Source: a virus
Strand: one strand, 5' to 3'
DNA: 61,367 bases
IMG/VR virus record: IMGVR_UViG_3300043493_000078
Shown here: positions 29,041-32,479 of the stretch, piece after piece
Layout: each line of letters opens with the position of its first letter
How positions within the stretch are numbered: position 1 is the first letter of the stretch
The notes under the pieces: generated by a model
Seen by the model: the letters and a program-made list of their open reading frames with translations, nothing else
Databases searched by the model: none
Told to the model about the DNA's origin: nothing
Program-made: the position numbers and the translations under genes

Positions 29041-29062
29041 CTCAGCGGGTCACGGAGAAAGA

Positions 29063-29488
29063 GCGCCCGGCATCGGCATGATGGGCATCAATCGATACTT
29101 GGCCGGGCGCAGGCGGTCGCAGGATCAACTTGGGCTTCACCCGTTGTCTGGCGACCGCAGTTGAAAGAGAAGAGCGCCCGGCACGCGAAGTGTGGGCATC
29201 AATCCCTCTTTGGCCGGGCGCAGGCGGTCGCAACGAGCTGTTGGGCATCACACCGTCGCTGGCGACCGCAGTTGGAGAATAGTTGCGCCCGGCAAGGCTA
29301 CTATGGGCTTCACTTACCCAATGGCCGGGCGCAGGCGGTCGCAACGTGTTTATGGGCTTCATGCCGCTATTGGCGACCGCAGTTGAAAGAGGGCGCGCGG
29401 CAAGCGCCCGAGGGGCATCAATCATCCTCTGGCCGCGCGCATGCGGTCGCATCTTCCTTCTGGGCTTCAATGGATTGATGGCGACCGC
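29063..29488 (+). repeat. Hairpin-module array 1: 4 tandem units (8 hairpins)
   Basis: Each unit is GCGCCCGGC-A-N9-TGGGCATCA-N9-TG-GCCGGGCGC-AG-GCGGTCGC-A-N9-TGGGCWTCA-N9-TG-GCGACCGC. Cores at 29082, 29131, 29193, 29242, 29304, 29353, 29412 and 29461. Confidence 0.9.
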
Positions 29489-29498
29489 AGTTCTCATT

Positions 29499-30362
29499 TT
29501 ATGCCGCTTTCTTATTGCGCGTGCGTTTGACCGGCGCAGGCTCCTCGCGCGCGATGGTCGGCGGCGAATGCCACTGCACCCACAAATCGGCCAAGAAAGA
29601 TTTCATCGTCACCCGCAGCGCGTCCATCCTTCGATGCTGTTTCGTCCAATCGGAATGCGTCTCCATCGTATGCGCGCGACGAGCTGCATATACTTCCCCA
29701 TAGTGGCCATTGGGCTTGCCCTCGCCGGTGTCGGTCTTCGCCGCACCGATCCACTGCGCGTTCACCAGCCAGATTACGATCTGGTGCATGAGGGCGTATC
29801 GCTGACCACTGAATGGATGTTCTATCCACTCATCTTTCGTCAGAGTGCGTGCGCGCCACTTCTCCCTTTTCCACGTCGACCCGGCGGCGCCGTCATATGG
29901 TGCAAAGCCCAGACGACTCCACAGCTTCGCGACGTTAGGGTAATTAGAGATGTCTCCCGCCTCAGCGACGATGGTAGCGAGGCCGAGCATGCCGGCACCG
30001 CGGATCGACCCCACCCACGGTGCAACGGCGAGGCCCTTCGCCAGCTTTTCCATCTCGGACTCTGACTCGTCGCGCATCGTGTCGAACATTTTTCGCCCGA
30101 CGTCAGTGTTGGTCACAATACTGATGACGGCCGGCAGACCTTCGCCCTTACGCGCGGCGGCGATGATGGCCTTGACCAGCCTGTTATTTTTCTCCCTGTC
30201 ATCCTCACTCGCGCTTGGCGACCACTCGGTCGCATTGATGCGAACGAATGATTCCATGGCGCGATCGATCTTCTGCTGAATTTTGATCGCATAGCGCCGC
30301 TGCCGGTGCGCGGCCTTCACGTCGGCAATGATTTCGATCTGGGTTTTCTCTGGCGCTTTCAT
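29499..30362 (-). CDS. IS110-family transposase C-terminal (Transposase_20, HhH) domain protein lacking the DEDD/RuvC-like domain
   Basis: VGSIRGAGMLGLATIVAEAGDISNYPNVAKLWSRLGFAPYDGAAGST parallels the IS110 pattern SIPGIG..TAA.LLAEIGDI.RF...RQLA.Y.GL.P...SG. The N-terminus is coiled coil only. Confidence 0.55.
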   Translation of the reverse strand: MKAPEKTQIEIIADVKAAHRQRRYAIKIQQKIDRAMESFVRINATEWSPSASEDDREKNNRLVKAIIAAARKGEGLPAVISIVTNTDVGRKMFDTMRDESESEMEKLAKGLAVAPWVGSIRGAGMLGLATIVAEAGDISNYPNVAKLWSRLGFAPYDGAAGSTWKREKWRARTLTKDEWIEHPFSGQRYALMHQIVIWLVNAQWIGAAKTDTGEGKPNGHYGEVYAARRAHTMETHSDWTKQHRRMDALRVTMKSFLADLWVQWHSPPTIAREEPAPVKRTRNKKAA

Positions 30363-31027
30363 GGGGCGATCTCCCTCGCGTGTTCATTAGACACCGTGCG
30401 CGCATATTCCCGCATTCCGCGCTCGACGAGCAGCGGGGCCTCAAGGCGGGATTCGGCAATGAATTTTTGCATCTGCCCCGCAGCGATCACGTCACGGACC
30501 CGGCGGGAATGATCATCAACGGTGGCGTGGCCGTGAATTTTCTTCAGCAGGATCGCATTTGCCGTCTCCGCGATGCCGAGCATGAGATACCTGGAAGCGT
30601 TATGGGCGTTTTCCTCGACCGCCATGTGCAACTCACCCCAGCGGAAGTCACCGATCGGGCGATCGTTGACGTGGTGTTCATGTGCAACAGCTTCATGCAG
30701 ACGGGCGGCAACATCGAGCGCGGATGATTTCTCGGCCTGTGTGCGAGGCAATTGGCGGCGGTGCGGCCCGACCTTCACGGGTTTGACCGGCGGCGGGGCG
30801 CTCGCCGATGGTGGGGGCAAAGGCTCGATTTCGAGCCTGGACATGTAGTCCGCGACCAATGCGATCAGTAGATCATCACGTTTTTTCAGCACGGCCGCAA
30901 ATTTTTGCGCAGCCTTCGCTGGCGCCTTGTTGAGGCGCAGCGCTTCAACCGCCATGTTTTTCAATTCAAGCGCGGCGGTGTTCAGTCCGGCCTTCTGGAA
31001 GGCATCGCGAAAAGCCGTGTTGATCAT
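30359..31027 (-). CDS. Hypothetical protein (cassette partner)
   Basis: 222-aa ORF with ATGA overlap to the downstream gene; no recognisable motif. Confidence 0.5.
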   Translation of the reverse strand: MINTAFRDAFQKAGLNTAALELKNMAVEALRLNKAPAKAAQKFAAVLKKRDDLLIALVADYMSRLEIEPLPPPSASAPPPVKPVKVGPHRRQLPRTQAEKSSALDVAARLHEAVAHEHHVNDRPIGDFRWGELHMAVEENAHNASRYLMLGIAETANAILLKKIHGHATVDDHSRRVRDVIAAGQMQKFIAESRLEAPLLVERGMREYARTVSNEHAREIAP

Positions 31028-31050
31028 GATCGTCTCCTGTGGGGAAGAGG

Positions 31051-31368
31051 GCGCCCGGCACAGTTGCGGTGGGCATCACGCGAATACTGGCCGGGCGCAG
31101 GCGGTCGCAGAAGGCAGTTGGGCTTCACCGCGACGCTGGCGACCGCGGTTCGTGAAGAAGGGCGCCCGGCACAATGGTTCTGGGCATCAAACAGCGCTTG
31201 GCCGGGCGCAGGCGGTCGCACGAATGATCTGGGCATCAAAGGCGTCATGGCGACCGCAGTCTGGAGATAAGAGCGCGCGGCACAGGCATTGTGGGCATCA
31301 GAAGGTTTCTGGCCGCGCGCATGCGGTCGCATCGAGTCTCTGGGCATCACAGTCTGACTGGCGACCGC
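31051..31368 (+). repeat. Hairpin-module array 2: 3 tandem units (6 hairpins)
   Basis: Same module as array 1. Cores at 31070, 31119, 31181, 31230, 31292 and 31341; unit period 111 nt. Confidence 0.9.
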
Positions 31369-31384
31369 AATCGGATTCATGGCG

Positions 31385-32479
31385 TCACAGCAGACCTTTA
31401 GCTGGCTTGCCGTCGAACCCAGCCTGCCACGCGTCCGCCTCGGCGGCACGCTCGGCGCTGTTTCTGTACTCAAGCGGGATCGCCTTCCTCGGATGGCCGG
31501 CGGCCTTGGCCTCGACGCCTCGTTGGTGCGCGATGGTGATAGGATCGGTGGCGGCAGAGTCACCAGCAGCAGCAGCTGCGGCGGTTTGGGTCTCATCCAC
31601 AGCGGGTTCGGTGCTCTGCGCGCCACCTCCCTGCACCTCCGCGGTGGGCTTGTCGCCTGCGGTTCTTTCGCCCTCAGCCGCGGGTGATGCAGGAGCTTCG
31701 AGCGGTGGAAACACTTCATCGACGGTGGCCATCCCATCAGCCACGCTTTTCATCATCGCTATGACCTGGGCGACGTTGGGCGCGAGCCAATCACGAGACG
31801 CGCGGCCGATGACGCGCTCCACGCGCACCAGATCGACGGGCATCTTGGCGATGCCCTGCAAGGTGCGCTCGCGCCAGCGGTCAAGGTCTTTGCCGATCTT
31901 CTCGACTAGCGAATTGCGCGCCTGCTCGAAGGCATAGTCGGCATAACTCTGGAGTGCATTACAGATGACGTTACGGATCGCCTTTGATTGTCCGATCTGA
32001 TAATTGATGTCGAGTTGACGATCGGCATCCTTGGTCTTCATTGAAGTTTGTGATTTTCGCTGGCGGTAGGCACGCTCCATTGAGAATCCGGTCTCGATGT
32101 CCGTAAATCTGGCATAGAACACGAAGGCATCACCAACATCGAGTTCGCGGACTTCAATGACGCAATTGCCATAGATGCGCGCGATGTCATTGGCGAGTTT
32201 GATTGACGGGCCTTCGACCCATTCGACCCCGCCATCCTTCTTCTTGAAGGGGATTCGATAGGTCCACTCCGAACCCATGGCGGCTGCAAGCGCTGCTGTT
32301 TTCTGGAGCACCTTGGGCTCATCACGATAGACGTGCACCCGTTGCGCGCCAATGATGTGCTCGGCAAGTCCGGTGGTCGGTCGCACCAGCGCGTGACCGT
32401 GCGGGGCCGGCTGGTTTGGTTGGCCCGCCGCATTGGCGAATTCGGCGAGGTCACGGCTGCGCTGCTCAAGGTCATTCAT
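31385..32479 (-). CDS. Putative single-strand annealing protein (Rad52/Sak-like) partnering the exonuclease
   Basis: Lies directly downstream of the YqaJ exonuclease. QIGQSKAIRNVICNAL resembles the Rad52-type motif. The C-terminus is Ala/Glu-rich. Confidence 0.4.
   Translation of the reverse strand: MNDLEQRSRDLAEFANAAGQPNQPAPHGHALVRPTTGLAEHIIGAQRVHVYRDEPKVLQKTAALAAAMGSEWTYRIPFKKKDGGVEWVEGPSIKLANDIARIYGNCVIEVRELDVGDAFVFYARFTDIETGFSMERAYRQRKSQTSMKTKDADRQLDINYQIGQSKAIRNVICNALQSYADYAFEQARNSLVEKIGKDLDRWRERTLQGIAKMPVDLVRVERVIGRASRDWLAPNVAQVIAMMKSVADGMATVDEVFPPLEAPASPAAEGERTAGDKPTAEVQGGGAQSTEPAVDETQTAAAAAAGDSAATDPITIAHQRGVEAKAAGHPRKAIPLEYRNSAERAAEADAWQAGFDGKPAKGLL

What the first reader, a model, noticed from the sequence alone, without database searches (positions are those of the whole stretch)
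29041..31385. Two tandem arrays of a 111-nt double-hairpin module bracket a two-gene cassette
Array 1 (29063-29488, 4 units) and array 2 (31051-31368, 3 units) repeat one module. It reads GCGCCCGGC-A-N9-TGGGCATCA-N9-TG-GCCGGGCGC-AG-GCGGTCGC-A-N9-TGGGC(A/T)TCA-N9-TG-GCGACCGC, followed by a 12-15-nt purine linker (AGTTGAAAGAG..). Unit periods are 111, 111, 108 and 111, 111 nt, and core-to-core spacing within a unit is always 49 nt. All 28 N9 segments are exactly 9 nt and unrelated in sequence, while stems and cores are nearly invariant. The unit at the right-hand end of each array carries the same two-sided stem change (GCGCGCGGC/GCCGCGCGC), which preserves pairing. Each unit is therefore two GC-clamped hairpins whose 30-nt loops show an invariant 9-mer between two hypervariable 9-mers. 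The arrays exactly fill the gaps annealing-protein gene/orf222 and orf287/xis-like gene. I cannot match this architecture to any described phage element. Hypotheses:
- (a) A structured RNA array acting as protein-binding or guide-like loops.
- (b) Iterons. The core read on the minus strand, TGATGCCCA, matches 7/9 of the alphaproteobacterial DnaA-box form TGATCCACA as I recall it, and a DnaA-domain-IV-only gene lies 300 bp away.
- (c) Strand-specific ssDNA hairpins (primase or ssi signals), because every copy in the genome has the same polarity.
Basis: partly seen in the sequence, partly recalled or inferred. Interest (0 to 1): 0.9.

Follow-up and report, generated by a model that had tools for sequence, protein, structure and literature searches.

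The report
Phage TIGR guide-RNA arrays with TasA
The hairpin arrays are guide-RNA arrays of a TIGR-Tas system, a kind of RNA-guided DNA-binding system first described in 2025, and they flank its effector gene in a temperate phage, so this is a clear example of a known kind rather than a new element.

Summary
In detail: 14 hairpins in two arrays, plus 3 solitary copies and a diverged 18th. The interpretation needs re-orienting.

Read on the minus strand, each hairpin is stem…C-CA | 9-nt spacer A | UG-AWGC-CCA | 9-nt spacer B | UG…stem. This is the published definition of a stem-loop TIGR (Tandem Interspaced Guide RNA) unit (Faure et al., Science 2025; Xu et al., bioRxiv 2026).

orf287, the gene between the arrays, is a nuclease-less Tas protein (TasA). 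Its best PDB matches by sequence profile and by predicted fold are TasR and TasH, followed by IS110 bridge recombinases.

In 28 of 29 loci that encode an orf287 relative, such hairpins lie on the tas strand (about 345, against 4 on the other strand). About 1 Mb of capsid-related phage DNA without tasA has none. Stems covary strongly.

The coding, iteron/DnaA and ssDNA-hairpin readings are not supported.

The most likely function is RNA-guided DNA binding or repression without cleavage. I found no convincing targets.

Local features not described in the two papers I read:
- guides paired as two-hairpin modules with alternating stem classes
- guides filling the gaps of the early recombination operon
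- orphan guides antisense to late genes
- a conserved partner gene, orf222

The parts
29499..30362 (-). tasA (orf287): TIGR-associated protein with a coiled coil and a Nop-type RNA-binding domain, and no nuclease domain
   Evidence: Pfam PF02371 at E = 2.3e-4, with no RuvC, DEDD or HNH hit. PHROG 4285 and 2199, both named 'transposase'. PDB by sequence: TasR 9mty, E = 0.0033 for the single sequence and 7.7e-5 for the profile; TasH 21kl, E = 0.06. AlphaFold2 model with pLDDT 85.7. Foldseek top five hits are TasR and TasH (probability 1.00, TM 0.43-0.59), followed by IS621 and ISCro4.
30359..31027 (-). orf222: partner gene of unknown function; its stop overlaps the tasA start by 4 nt
   Evidence: ORF map. 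A homologue lies immediately upstream of tasA in 18 of 29 loci. No Pfam, PDB or PADLOC match. The structure model is unusable, pLDDT 45.6.
29063..29489 (-). TIGR array 1, downstream of tasA: 8 stem-loop guides in 4 two-hairpin modules. In order of transcription: 29442-29489 (B), 29393-29440 (A, variant stem, degenerate loop UGAUGCCCC), 29335-29380 (B), 29284-29333 (A), 29224-29269 (B), 29174-29221 (A), 29113-29158 (B), 29063-29110 (A)
   Evidence: Each guide reads CCA-N9-UG|AWGC|CCA-N9-UG inside an 8-10-bp stem. RNA fold z = -3.7.
31051..31369 (-). TIGR array 2, upstream of orf222 and tasA: 6 stem-loop guides in 3 modules: 31322-31369 (B), 31273-31320 (A, variant stem), 31212-31257 (B), 31162-31209 (A), 31101-31146 (B), 31051-31098 (A)
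29159..29173 (-). Example of an inter-module linker, UCUUCUCUUUCAACU in guide sense. It holds the CUU motif reported as the processing boundary of stem-loop tigRNAs. The junction inside a module is only 2 nt (CU or AU).
   Evidence: Across the clade the linkers are bimodal, about 1 nt and about 13 nt.
11242..11293 (-). Solitary guide with a different 11-bp stem (one A·C mismatch in guide sense). It lies between two + strand tail-region genes, antisense to them.
   Evidence: The 3' flank is UCUCUUUCAG, like the array linkers.
54622..54667 (-). Solitary guide with an imperfect stem, in the gap between the portal and head-protease genes, antisense to them
57251..57312 (-). Solitary guide just after the major head protein gene, antisense to it. 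Its 12-bp stem includes two G·U pairs on the minus strand and is followed by U5.
   Evidence: It lies back to back with the + strand terminator-like site at 57215-57244.
41647..41718 (+). Plus-strand module: a collapsed B-type stem with a UUCG tetraloop and no spacers (41647-41666), then a complete guide (41669-41718) with stem GGAGCCCGGC and loop UGGUACCCA. It runs in the same direction as the rightward early genes.

Best explanation
The two arrays, the three solitary copies and the diverged 18th copy are stem-loop-type TIGR guide-RNA genes. orf287 is their effector, a nuclease-less TasA.

Shown here:
- On the minus strand every unit is a covarying 8-12-bp stem enclosing box C (CCA), a 9-nt spacer A, a 9-nt loop repeat that starts UG and ends CCA, a 9-nt spacer B, and box D (UG).
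- orf287 has the Tas fold.
- The hairpins and the gene co-occur on the same strand across relatives.

Inferred from the published systems:
- The arrays are transcribed with the leftward early operon and cut at the CUU-rich linkers.
- Each hairpin is bound by a TasA dimer.
- The two spacers pair with opposite strands of an 18-bp DNA site. The complex binds and bends that DNA without cutting it, and so blocks transcription or another DNA transaction.

The targets are unknown. They are not in this phage, so host genes or competing mobile elements are the likely targets.
For: RNA anatomy:
- Box D 'UG' in 108 of 108 hairpins, box C 'CCA' in 100 of 108, and loop repeat UGAUGCCCA or UGAAGCCCA.
- This equals the published rule that edge and loop repeats start UG and end CCA, with 9-nt spacers and a loop that is mostly 9 nt.
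- It also meets TIGRFinder's operational definition: two 14-nt box C + 9 + box D intervals no more than 15 bp apart inside a palindrome.

Structure:
- On 96 hairpins with distinct stems, 91.5% of cells pair against 61.3% in shuffles. Cells changed on both sides number 306 against 100. The covariation score is 0.743 against 0.189 shuffled and 0.11-0.18 for slid controls.
- There are 139 distinct stem pairs.

Protein: as listed under parts.

Co-occurrence:
- 28 of 29 loci with an orf287 relative carry box-obeying hairpins on the tas strand, about 345 against 4 on the other strand.
- There are none in about 0.97 Mb of capsid-related phage DNA without tasA.

Other:
- CUU-rich linkers lie between the modules.
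- Function is inferred from published TasA data: EMSA, and reversible guide-dependent repression.
Against: - There are no expression or binding data for this phage.
- The simple scan found no promoter-like site near the arrays.
- The CUU motif is absent at the junction inside each module, so processing into single hairpins is not assured.
- G·U against A·C counts in the stems do not discriminate the strand, 7 against 5.
- Three guides lie antisense inside the late operon and have no identified promoter.
- No target was found. There is no perfect match in 1.6 Mb of related phage DNA, and only a marginal geometry-specific excess of 2-mismatch hits.
- Sequence similarity to solved Tas proteins is weak (17-20% identity), so the assignment rests on fold, profile and context together.
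Confidence: 0.88

Rival explanations
1. The hairpins are generic REP/BIME- or MITE-like palindromes, or mRNA stabiliser or processing hairpins, that spread through intergenic gaps and have nothing to do with orf287.
For: They occupy nearly every intergenic gap of the early operon in relatives. Solitary copies sit just after highly expressed late genes such as the major head gene. The stems are GC-rich.
Against: A plain stabiliser needs no invariant loop with UG...CCA boxes and two exactly 9-nt variable segments. The hairpins track tasA and its strand, about 345 against 4. They are absent from about 1 Mb of related phages that lack tasA. The one genome-collection hit is another tasA locus (L045), not a spread of chromosomal copies. 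That scan looked for the protein, not the hairpin.
Confidence: 0.04
2. The arrays are translated as repeat proteins with hypervariable positions: the minus-strand ORFs 29042-29497 (151 aa) and 31024-31380 (118 aa).
For: The periods (111 and 108) and the N9 lengths are multiples of 3. The ORFs start 1-4 nt after the upstream stop codon and end at the downstream start codon. Long open minus-strand frames also run through the arrays in relatives.
Against: - Stop codons in the N9 segments are not specifically depleted in those frames: 4 and 4, against 3-10 in the other frames and about 7 expected.
- L003, L004 and L010 read the same hairpin classes in other frames, and unit lengths of 109 and 110 nt occur.
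- + strand frames are equally open.
- Solitary copies lie in gaps of about 90-180 nt.
- Compensatory stem changes have no coding rationale.
- No Pfam family is above threshold for either ORF.
Confidence: 0.03
3. The arrays are iterons or DnaA-box clusters of a phage origin, bound by the neighbouring DnaA-domain-IV-only protein. Alternatively, they are strand-specific ssDNA hairpins serving as priming signals.
For: The core is a 9-mer. A DnaA-IV gene lies about 300 bp away. In the window, 17 copies share one strand.
Against: - Binding to double-stranded DNA would not select for compensatory stem changes among copies within one genome.
- The DnaA-IV gene is found with tasA in only 2 of 29 loci.
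- Polarity follows the tas gene. Contig 3300043611_000020 has copies on both strands, and the window has one + strand guide.
- The motif details (CCA, UG, 9-9-9) are exactly those of tigRNAs.
Confidence: 0.03

Closest known systems
Stem-loop TIGR arrays with TasA (Faure et al., Science 2025, PMC12045711; Xu et al., bioRxiv 2026, 10.64898/2026.09.09.750476), for example the Peromyscus gut TasA locus, Bifidobacterium longum TasA and Minisyncoccota TasA
   Same: - A Nop-domain-only effector.
- Tandem palindromic stems, each enclosing two 9-nt spacers bracketed by box C (CCA) and box D (UG).
- A 9-nt loop between the spacers.
- Arrays on both sides of tas, split into sub-arrays.
- CUU in the linkers.
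- A phage setting.
   Different: None of the following is described in the text of the two papers I read:
- Guides come as two-hairpin modules with two alternating stem classes (…GGUCGC, then …CCCGGC) joined by 1-2 nt, and the CUU linkers lie only between modules.
- In relatives the guides are spread through every gap of a RecT/YqaJ-type early operon.
- Orphan guides lie antisense inside late operons.
- orf222 is a conserved upstream partner.

The stem sequences within an array are nearly identical here, whereas the paper reports that stems usually diverge within an array.
Dual-repeat TIGR arrays with TasR or TasH (36-nt tigRNAs)
   Same: The same UG…CCA logic in the edge and loop repeats, 9-nt spacers A and B, and a homologous Nop fold. 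TasR and TasH are the top structural hits.
   Different: There are no short edge repeats; stems of 8-12 bp take their place. The effector has no nuclease domain. Processing is probably not by the Tas Y/H loop.
IS110/IS1111 bridge RNA or seekRNA recombinases
   Same: A homologous RNA-binding domain: PF02371 hit, and IS621 and ISCro4 as the next-best folds. Guide loops with two variable segments. A bridge RNA is one RNA with two such loops, which the two-hairpin module here resembles in outline.
   Different: orf287 has no DEDD/RuvC domain and does not lie in an insertion sequence with ends. There are many modules rather than one bridge RNA.
Box C/D s(no)RNAs with Nop5/Nop56-58
   Same: Two guide segments bracketed by C- and D-type motifs and bound by a dimeric Nop-domain protein. 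There is weak sequence similarity to Nop56, E = 0.075.
   Different: No K-turn boxes (RUGAUGA/CUGA) and no L7Ae or fibrillarin partner were seen. Rfam C/D models do not hit the arrays; the only weak hit, sR44 at 25.5 bits against a threshold of 45, lies inside tasA. By analogy with Tas, the target is DNA, not RNA.
CRISPR arrays
   Same: Tandem units with conserved and variable parts that encode guide RNAs next to an effector gene.
   Different: The guide is split into 9 + 9 nt, the stems alternate, and no cas genes or adaptation module are present. PADLOC finds nothing for the five neighbouring proteins tested.

Membership tests
TIGR-Tas, stem-loop array type with TasA | Effector with a Nop-type RNA-binding domain and a coiled-coil dimerisation region | tested here: met
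   The profile of 26 homologues against PDB gives TasR 9mty at 7.7e-5 and TasH at 0.06 as the only hits. In the AlphaFold2 model (pLDDT 85.7), long helices 8-44, 53-71 and 77-108 are followed by a helical C-terminal domain. Foldseek's top five hits are all Tas proteins, probability 1.00. hhalign against a Tas sequence from the paper's own table gives E = 0.0079 and is collinear over 140 columns.
TIGR-Tas, stem-loop array type with TasA | TasA subtype: no RuvC or HNH nuclease domain | tested here: met
   The protein is 287 aa. PF02371 is its only Pfam hit. The N-terminal 110 residues are modelled as coiled-coil helices.
TIGR-Tas, stem-loop array type with TasA | Each guide unit has two 8-12-nt spacers, each bracketed by box C (CCA, CGA, CTA or CAA) on the 5' side and box D (UG or CG) on the 3' side | tested here: met
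   CCA-N9-UG | AWGC | CCA-N9-UG in 17 of 18 window copies; the hairpin at 29393-29440 has CCC as its second box C. Over all loci, box D is present in 108 of 108 and box C in 100 of 108. The definition is quoted.
TIGR-Tas, stem-loop array type with TasA | The loop between the spacers is conserved, about 9 nt, starts UG and ends CCA, and has a box C/D base pair | tested here: met
   UGAUGCCCA or UGAAGCCCA here. Relatives have UGAAACCCA, UGAACUCCA, UGAUACCCA and others, always UG…CCA. The G2-C7 pair holds in 96 of 96 sequences. However, my finder fixed G2, and C7 was free but never varies, so this pair says nothing for or against pairing.
TIGR-Tas, stem-loop array type with TasA | Palindromic stems flank each spacer pair, vary in sequence and keep their pairing | tested here: met
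   139 distinct stem pairs. Nine of 10 stem pairs show changes on both sides, and the covariation score is 0.743 against 0.189. Caveat: my finder required pairing. Independently of that, almost every occurrence of the core has a stem.
TIGR-Tas, stem-loop array type with TasA | Units lie in tandem next to tas (upstream, downstream or both), on the tas strand | tested here: met
   The window's arrays lie on both sides of orf222-tasA on the minus strand. 28 of 29 relative loci have them, about 345 against 4 by strand.
TIGR-Tas, stem-loop array type with TasA | A conserved CUU motif at the base of the stem marks the processing boundary | tested here: inconclusive
   CUU is present in the long linkers (UCUUCUCUUUCAACU and variants) but cannot be present at the 1-2-nt junction inside a module. 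Overall, 24% of array hairpins and 20% of solitary ones have CUU within 8 nt 3' of the stem.
TIGR-Tas, stem-loop array type with TasA | The arrays are transcribed and processed into tigRNAs that the Tas protein binds | not testable with these tools
   No transcriptome is available. The simple promoter and terminator scan found nothing decisive.
TIGR-Tas, stem-loop array type with TasA | Spacers A and B pair with opposite strands of one DNA target | tested here: inconclusive
   The geometry [spacer A][reverse complement of spacer B] was inferred from the C-5 rule and the 8-nt 3' overhangs. In early regions of relatives, 63 guides have a hit with 2 or fewer mismatches, against 51.1 ± 6.0 in shuffles (1 of 40 shuffles reaches 63). 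The mirror geometry gives 45 against 50.2. There is no excess in late regions, no perfect match anywhere and no self-target.
IS110/IS1111 RNA-guided recombinase with bridge RNA or seekRNA | N-terminal DEDD (RuvC-like) catalytic domain joined to the Transposase_20 domain | tested here: not met
   Only PF02371 is hit, at residues 119-170. No DEDD_Tnp_IS110 hit was found. The model's N-terminus is a coiled coil. IS621 ranks below all the Tas structures.
IS110/IS1111 RNA-guided recombinase with bridge RNA or seekRNA | A single two-loop guide RNA within a discrete insertion sequence | tested here: not met
   There are 18 guides in arrays and as orphans, within a phage operon that is syntenic across relatives.
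Box C/D sRNA | K-turn-forming boxes C (RUGAUGA) and D (CUGA), recognised by the Rfam models | tested here: not met
   No Rfam family hits the arrays at the gathering threshold or at E up to 10.
REP/BIME-type repeated extragenic palindromes | Many copies dispersed in a host chromosome, independent of a linked effector gene | tested here: inconclusive
   The hairpins track tasA and are absent from related phages without it.
DnaA-box or iteron origin | Repeated double-stranded DNA sites recognised by a linked initiator | tested here: not met
   The covariation points to a folded single strand. The DnaA-IV gene is linked to tasA in only 2 of 29 loci.

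The most novel reading that the evidence does not exclude
The two-hairpin module is the functional RNA: a B stem-loop, a 1-2-nt junction and an A stem-loop, with CUU processing linkers only outside the module. It would then be a natural 'double tigRNA' carrying four spacers. It would bind two TasA dimers and bring two DNA sites together, much as an IS110 bridge RNA does but without catalysis. It sits in a phage recombination and integration operon, so it could guide synapsis or DNA looping. It would also be an evolutionary intermediate between tigRNAs and bridge RNAs.
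Probability: 0.12. Interest if true: 0.75.

Novelty: new member of a known kind. Interest (0 to 1): 0.35.

Why it matters
TIGR-Tas systems are newly described, and their natural targets, biological role and spacer origin are open questions. This locus is a clean case for working on them:
- It lies in what looks like a complete 61-kb temperate phage genome, probably of a Xanthobacteraceae host.
- The same sequence was recovered 100% identical from three independent sequencing runs.
- It has 18 guides, a nuclease-less effector and a conserved partner gene.

The paired-hairpin modules, the guides embedded in the early recombination operon and the orphan guides antisense to late genes each suggest a testable idea about how guides are made and used. 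The finding does not reveal a new kind of system.

Tried and rejected
- **Published phages.** A search of INPHARED phages with the 3-kb region found no match.
- **Rfam.** Nothing hits the arrays. The weak C/D-box hits lie inside genes and are well below threshold.
- **Coding test.** Stop counts by frame and frame consistency across loci both argue against translation, so I rejected it.
- **Strand from wobble pairs.** The count is 7 G·U against 5 A·C, which is uninformative.
- **Bridge-RNA/IS110 membership.** I considered this first because of PF02371. I rejected it because there is no DEDD domain and Tas structures score better.
- **Target search.** I tested two geometries, gaps of 0-2 bp and partner-shuffled controls. 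The first small set looked promising: 10 guides against 4.7 ± 2.2, hits in YqaJ genes of relatives, and more mismatches at the guide phage's own homologous site. The excess shrank with 330 guides (63 against 51.1 ± 6.0). It was absent in about 1 Mb of late and replication regions. There were no perfect matches and no self-targets.
- **Promoter and terminator scans.** No promoter-like sites were found. The only suggestive signal is the stem plus U5 at the 57251 guide. A U-tract is not general among solitary guides, 6%.
- **orf222.** No family or PDB match. Only one database homologue could be handed to the structure predictor, and the model is unusable at pLDDT 45.6.
- **Spacer turnover.** The identical copies of the phage cannot inform this, because all 14 array guides are the same.
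- **Is this clade already catalogued?** Its signature peptides are absent from the Science paper's supplementary table as held here. That text is truncated, so the result is inconclusive.

Full report
**1. Observation**

Tandem Repeats Finder reports period-111 arrays at 29059-29492 and 31087-31374.

A pattern that ignores the stem sequence (GC-N10-TGGGCWTCA-N9-TGGC) hits 17 times, all on the + strand, against 0 expected. Fourteen hits are in the arrays and three are solitary, at 11251, 54628 and 57265.

The solitary copies keep the loop but have quite different stems that still pair. All N9 segments are 9 nt and near random in composition. One unit folds as two clean stems, z = -3.7.

A relaxed scan adds an 18th, diverged copy at 41669-41718 with the opposite polarity. 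A B-type stem collapsed onto a UUCG tetraloop lies directly before it.

**2. Context**

GC3-based gene calls and PHROG hits show that the window looks like a whole temperate phage genome:
- late genes on the + strand (portal, head protease, major head protein, tail genes)
- a leftward early block at about 24.7-34.3 kb on the minus strand
- a rightward early block on the + strand

The arrays lie in the leftward block. In order of transcription the block reads: YqaJ exonuclease, a 364-aa protein, array 2, orf222, orf287, array 1, an HTH protein, a DnaA-domain-IV-only protein.

**3. Relatives**

The published phage collection has no match. A hairpin pattern found 16 loci in IMG/VR. In these loci the core and the 9-9-9 spacing never vary, the N9 segments are unrelated, and the stems occur as several mutually compensated variants.

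The hairpins fill almost every intergenic gap of the recombination operon. Ninety-four of 113 have the same orientation relative to both flanking genes.

**4. Coding alternative**

All the periods are multiples of 3, and minus-strand ORFs of 151 and 118 aa fill the gaps, so I tested translation. Four results argue against it:
- Stop codons inside the N9 segments are not specifically depleted in the ORF frames: 4 and 4, against 3-10 in other frames.
- Other loci read the same hairpin classes in different frames, and units of 109 and 110 nt occur.
- + strand frames are equally open.
- Compensatory stem changes have no coding rationale.

I reject this reading.

**5. Identification**

orf287 weakly matches Pfam PF02371, the C-terminal domain of IS110-family transposases, and two PHROG 'transposase' families. 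Its best PDB match by sequence is 9mty. The literature search shows that 9mty is the TasR structure from the TIGR-Tas paper.

That paper defines TIGR arrays as units with two roughly 9-nt spacers. The conserved segments start with UG (box D) and end with CCA (box C). It also describes a stem-loop variant: palindromic stems replace the edge repeats, and the effector is often the nuclease-less TasA, frequently in phages.

The 2026 follow-up adds that the loop is mostly 9 nt and that CUU at the stem base marks processing. It also gives an operational definition: two 14-nt box C + 9 + box D intervals no more than 15 bp apart, inside a palindrome.

Read on the minus strand, every window hairpin is …C-CA | N9 | UG-AWGC-CCA | N9 | UG…. 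Box D is present in 108 of 108 hairpins and box C in 100 of 108 across the first set of loci.

**6. Protein membership**

- A profile of 26 homologues hits only TasR (7.7e-5) and TasH (0.06) in the PDB.
- The AlphaFold2 model (pLDDT 85.7) is a long coiled coil followed by a helical domain.
- Foldseek ranks TasR and TasH first to fifth (probability 1.00, TM 0.43-0.59), then the IS621 and ISCro4 bridge recombinases.
- A Tas sequence taken from the paper's own table aligns collinearly with the orf287 profile, E = 0.0079.
- orf287 has no nuclease domain, so it is a TasA.

**7. Co-occurrence and strand**

Loci encoding orf287 relatives were fetched from viral contigs (28 loci) and from bacterial genomes (1 locus, a Xanthobacteraceae MAG). 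Twenty-eight of the 29 carry box-obeying hairpins on the tas strand, about 345 in all against 4 on the other strand.

Their loop repeats differ between phages but always keep UG…CCA. About 0.97 Mb from 73 phages related through the capsid gene, none of which came up in the tasA search, has none.

On 96 hairpins with distinct stems the covariation score is 0.743, against 0.189 in shuffles and 0.11-0.18 for slid controls. My finder pre-selects for pairing. One search shows, without that selection, that nearly every occurrence of the core has a stem.

The G·U against A·C count could not confirm the strand, 7 against 5. The strand call therefore rests on the boxes, the CUU linkers and the orientation shared with tasA.

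**8. Mechanism**

Shown here: the RNA anatomy, the fold of the effector, and the linkage and strand rule.

Inferred from the published systems:
- the arrays are transcribed with the early operon and processed in the linkers
- a TasA dimer binds each hairpin
- spacers A and B pair with opposite strands of an 18-bp site
- the complex binds DNA without cutting it and can repress transcription

From the published C-5 cleavage rule and the 8-nt 3' overhangs, I inferred that the target reads [spacer A][reverse complement of spacer B].

With that geometry a first test looked enriched: 10 guides against 4.7 ± 2.2, with hits in YqaJ genes of relatives. With 330 guides the excess is marginal in early regions (63 against 51.1 ± 6.0; 1 of 40 shuffles reaches 63). 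It is absent in late regions. There are no perfect matches and no self-targets.

The targets remain unknown, as the authors also report for these systems.

**9. Features not described in the two papers I read**

- Guides come in two-hairpin modules. Across the clade the linkers are bimodal, about 1 nt and about 13 nt. The stem classes alternate (…GGUCGC, then …CCCGGC), and CUU occurs only in the long linkers.
- Guides are embedded throughout the early recombination operon.
- Orphan guides lie antisense to both neighbours. The window has three, in the late block. Among solitary copies in relatives, 13 are antisense to both neighbours and 10 run the same way. Array members split 52 to 6 in favour of the same direction.
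- Solitary stems are longer, on average 10.5 bp against 9.2.
- The copy at 57251 has its own stem plus U5 and lies back to back with the terminator-like site of the head gene.
- An orf222 homologue lies directly upstream of tasA in 18 of 29 loci. Its function is unknown.

**10. Verdict**

This is a stem-loop TIGR-TasA system, a kind described in 2025-2026. I rate it a new member of a known kind.

The strand, the claim of no precedent, and the iteron and ssDNA ideas were not.

I could not confirm whether this clade is already listed in the published catalogues.

Noticed in passing
window 59008-59223 (+): A group I intron (Rfam RF00028, 72.6 bits against a gathering score of 50) lies in the late block, between ORFs 58263-58946 and 59287-60753.
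   Followed up: no
window 30359-31027 (-): The stop codon of orf222 overlaps the tasA start. A homologue lies immediately upstream of tasA in 18 of 29 related loci. There is no Pfam, PDB or PADLOC match, and only a weak DUF6195 hit in 4 of 14 relatives. It may be an accessory gene of this TasA clade.
   Followed up: partly
window 29499-30362 (-), residues 155-172 of TasA: The most conserved stretch of the family (P155, G158, A160, G161, S162, W164, K165, R166, W169, R170 and R172 are invariant) is the only low-confidence segment of the model. It falls within, and just past, the PF02371 match (residues 119-170). In IS110 enzymes that domain holds the catalytic serine. I did not examine whether S162 matters.
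   Followed up: no
window 28082-28741 (-): A protein with only DnaA domain IV (PF08299, 4e-20) lies downstream of array 1. It is found with tasA in only 2 of 29 relatives, so it is probably not part of the system.
   Followed up: partly
window 41647-41666 (+): A B-type stem (GCGGUCAG/CUGACCGC) closes on a UUCG tetraloop and has no spacers. It lies directly 5' of the + strand guide. It looks like a guide hairpin that lost its loop.
   Followed up: no
window 11324-11593 (+): An 89-aa PAAR-like gene (phrog_281, 1.2e-5) starts 31 nt after the solitary guide at 11242-11293.
   Followed up: no
L121, L122, L123 (Logan runs SRR35959918, SRR35197312, SRR35198331): The tasA region, with all 14 array guides, is 100% identical in three independent sequencing runs. 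The same phage is therefore widespread or was sampled repeatedly, and its guides are stable.
   Followed up: yes
L045 (Xanthobacteraceae MAG contig DATGCX010000444.1, 4655 bp): This is the only hit in the bacterial genome collection. It has a tasA relative (47% identity) and 17-19 guide hairpins packed into 4.6 kb, and it gives a clue to the host family.
   Followed up: partly
L006 vs L014, L007 vs L012, L010: Some guides in related phages share one 9-nt spacer exactly while the other spacer differs. This suggests exchange or turnover of half-guides around the loop repeat.
   Followed up: no
L037 (IMGVR_UViG_3300002461_000592): This is the one locus with a tasA relative (54% identity) in which my finder detected no box-obeying hairpin within ±10 kb.
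   Followed up: no
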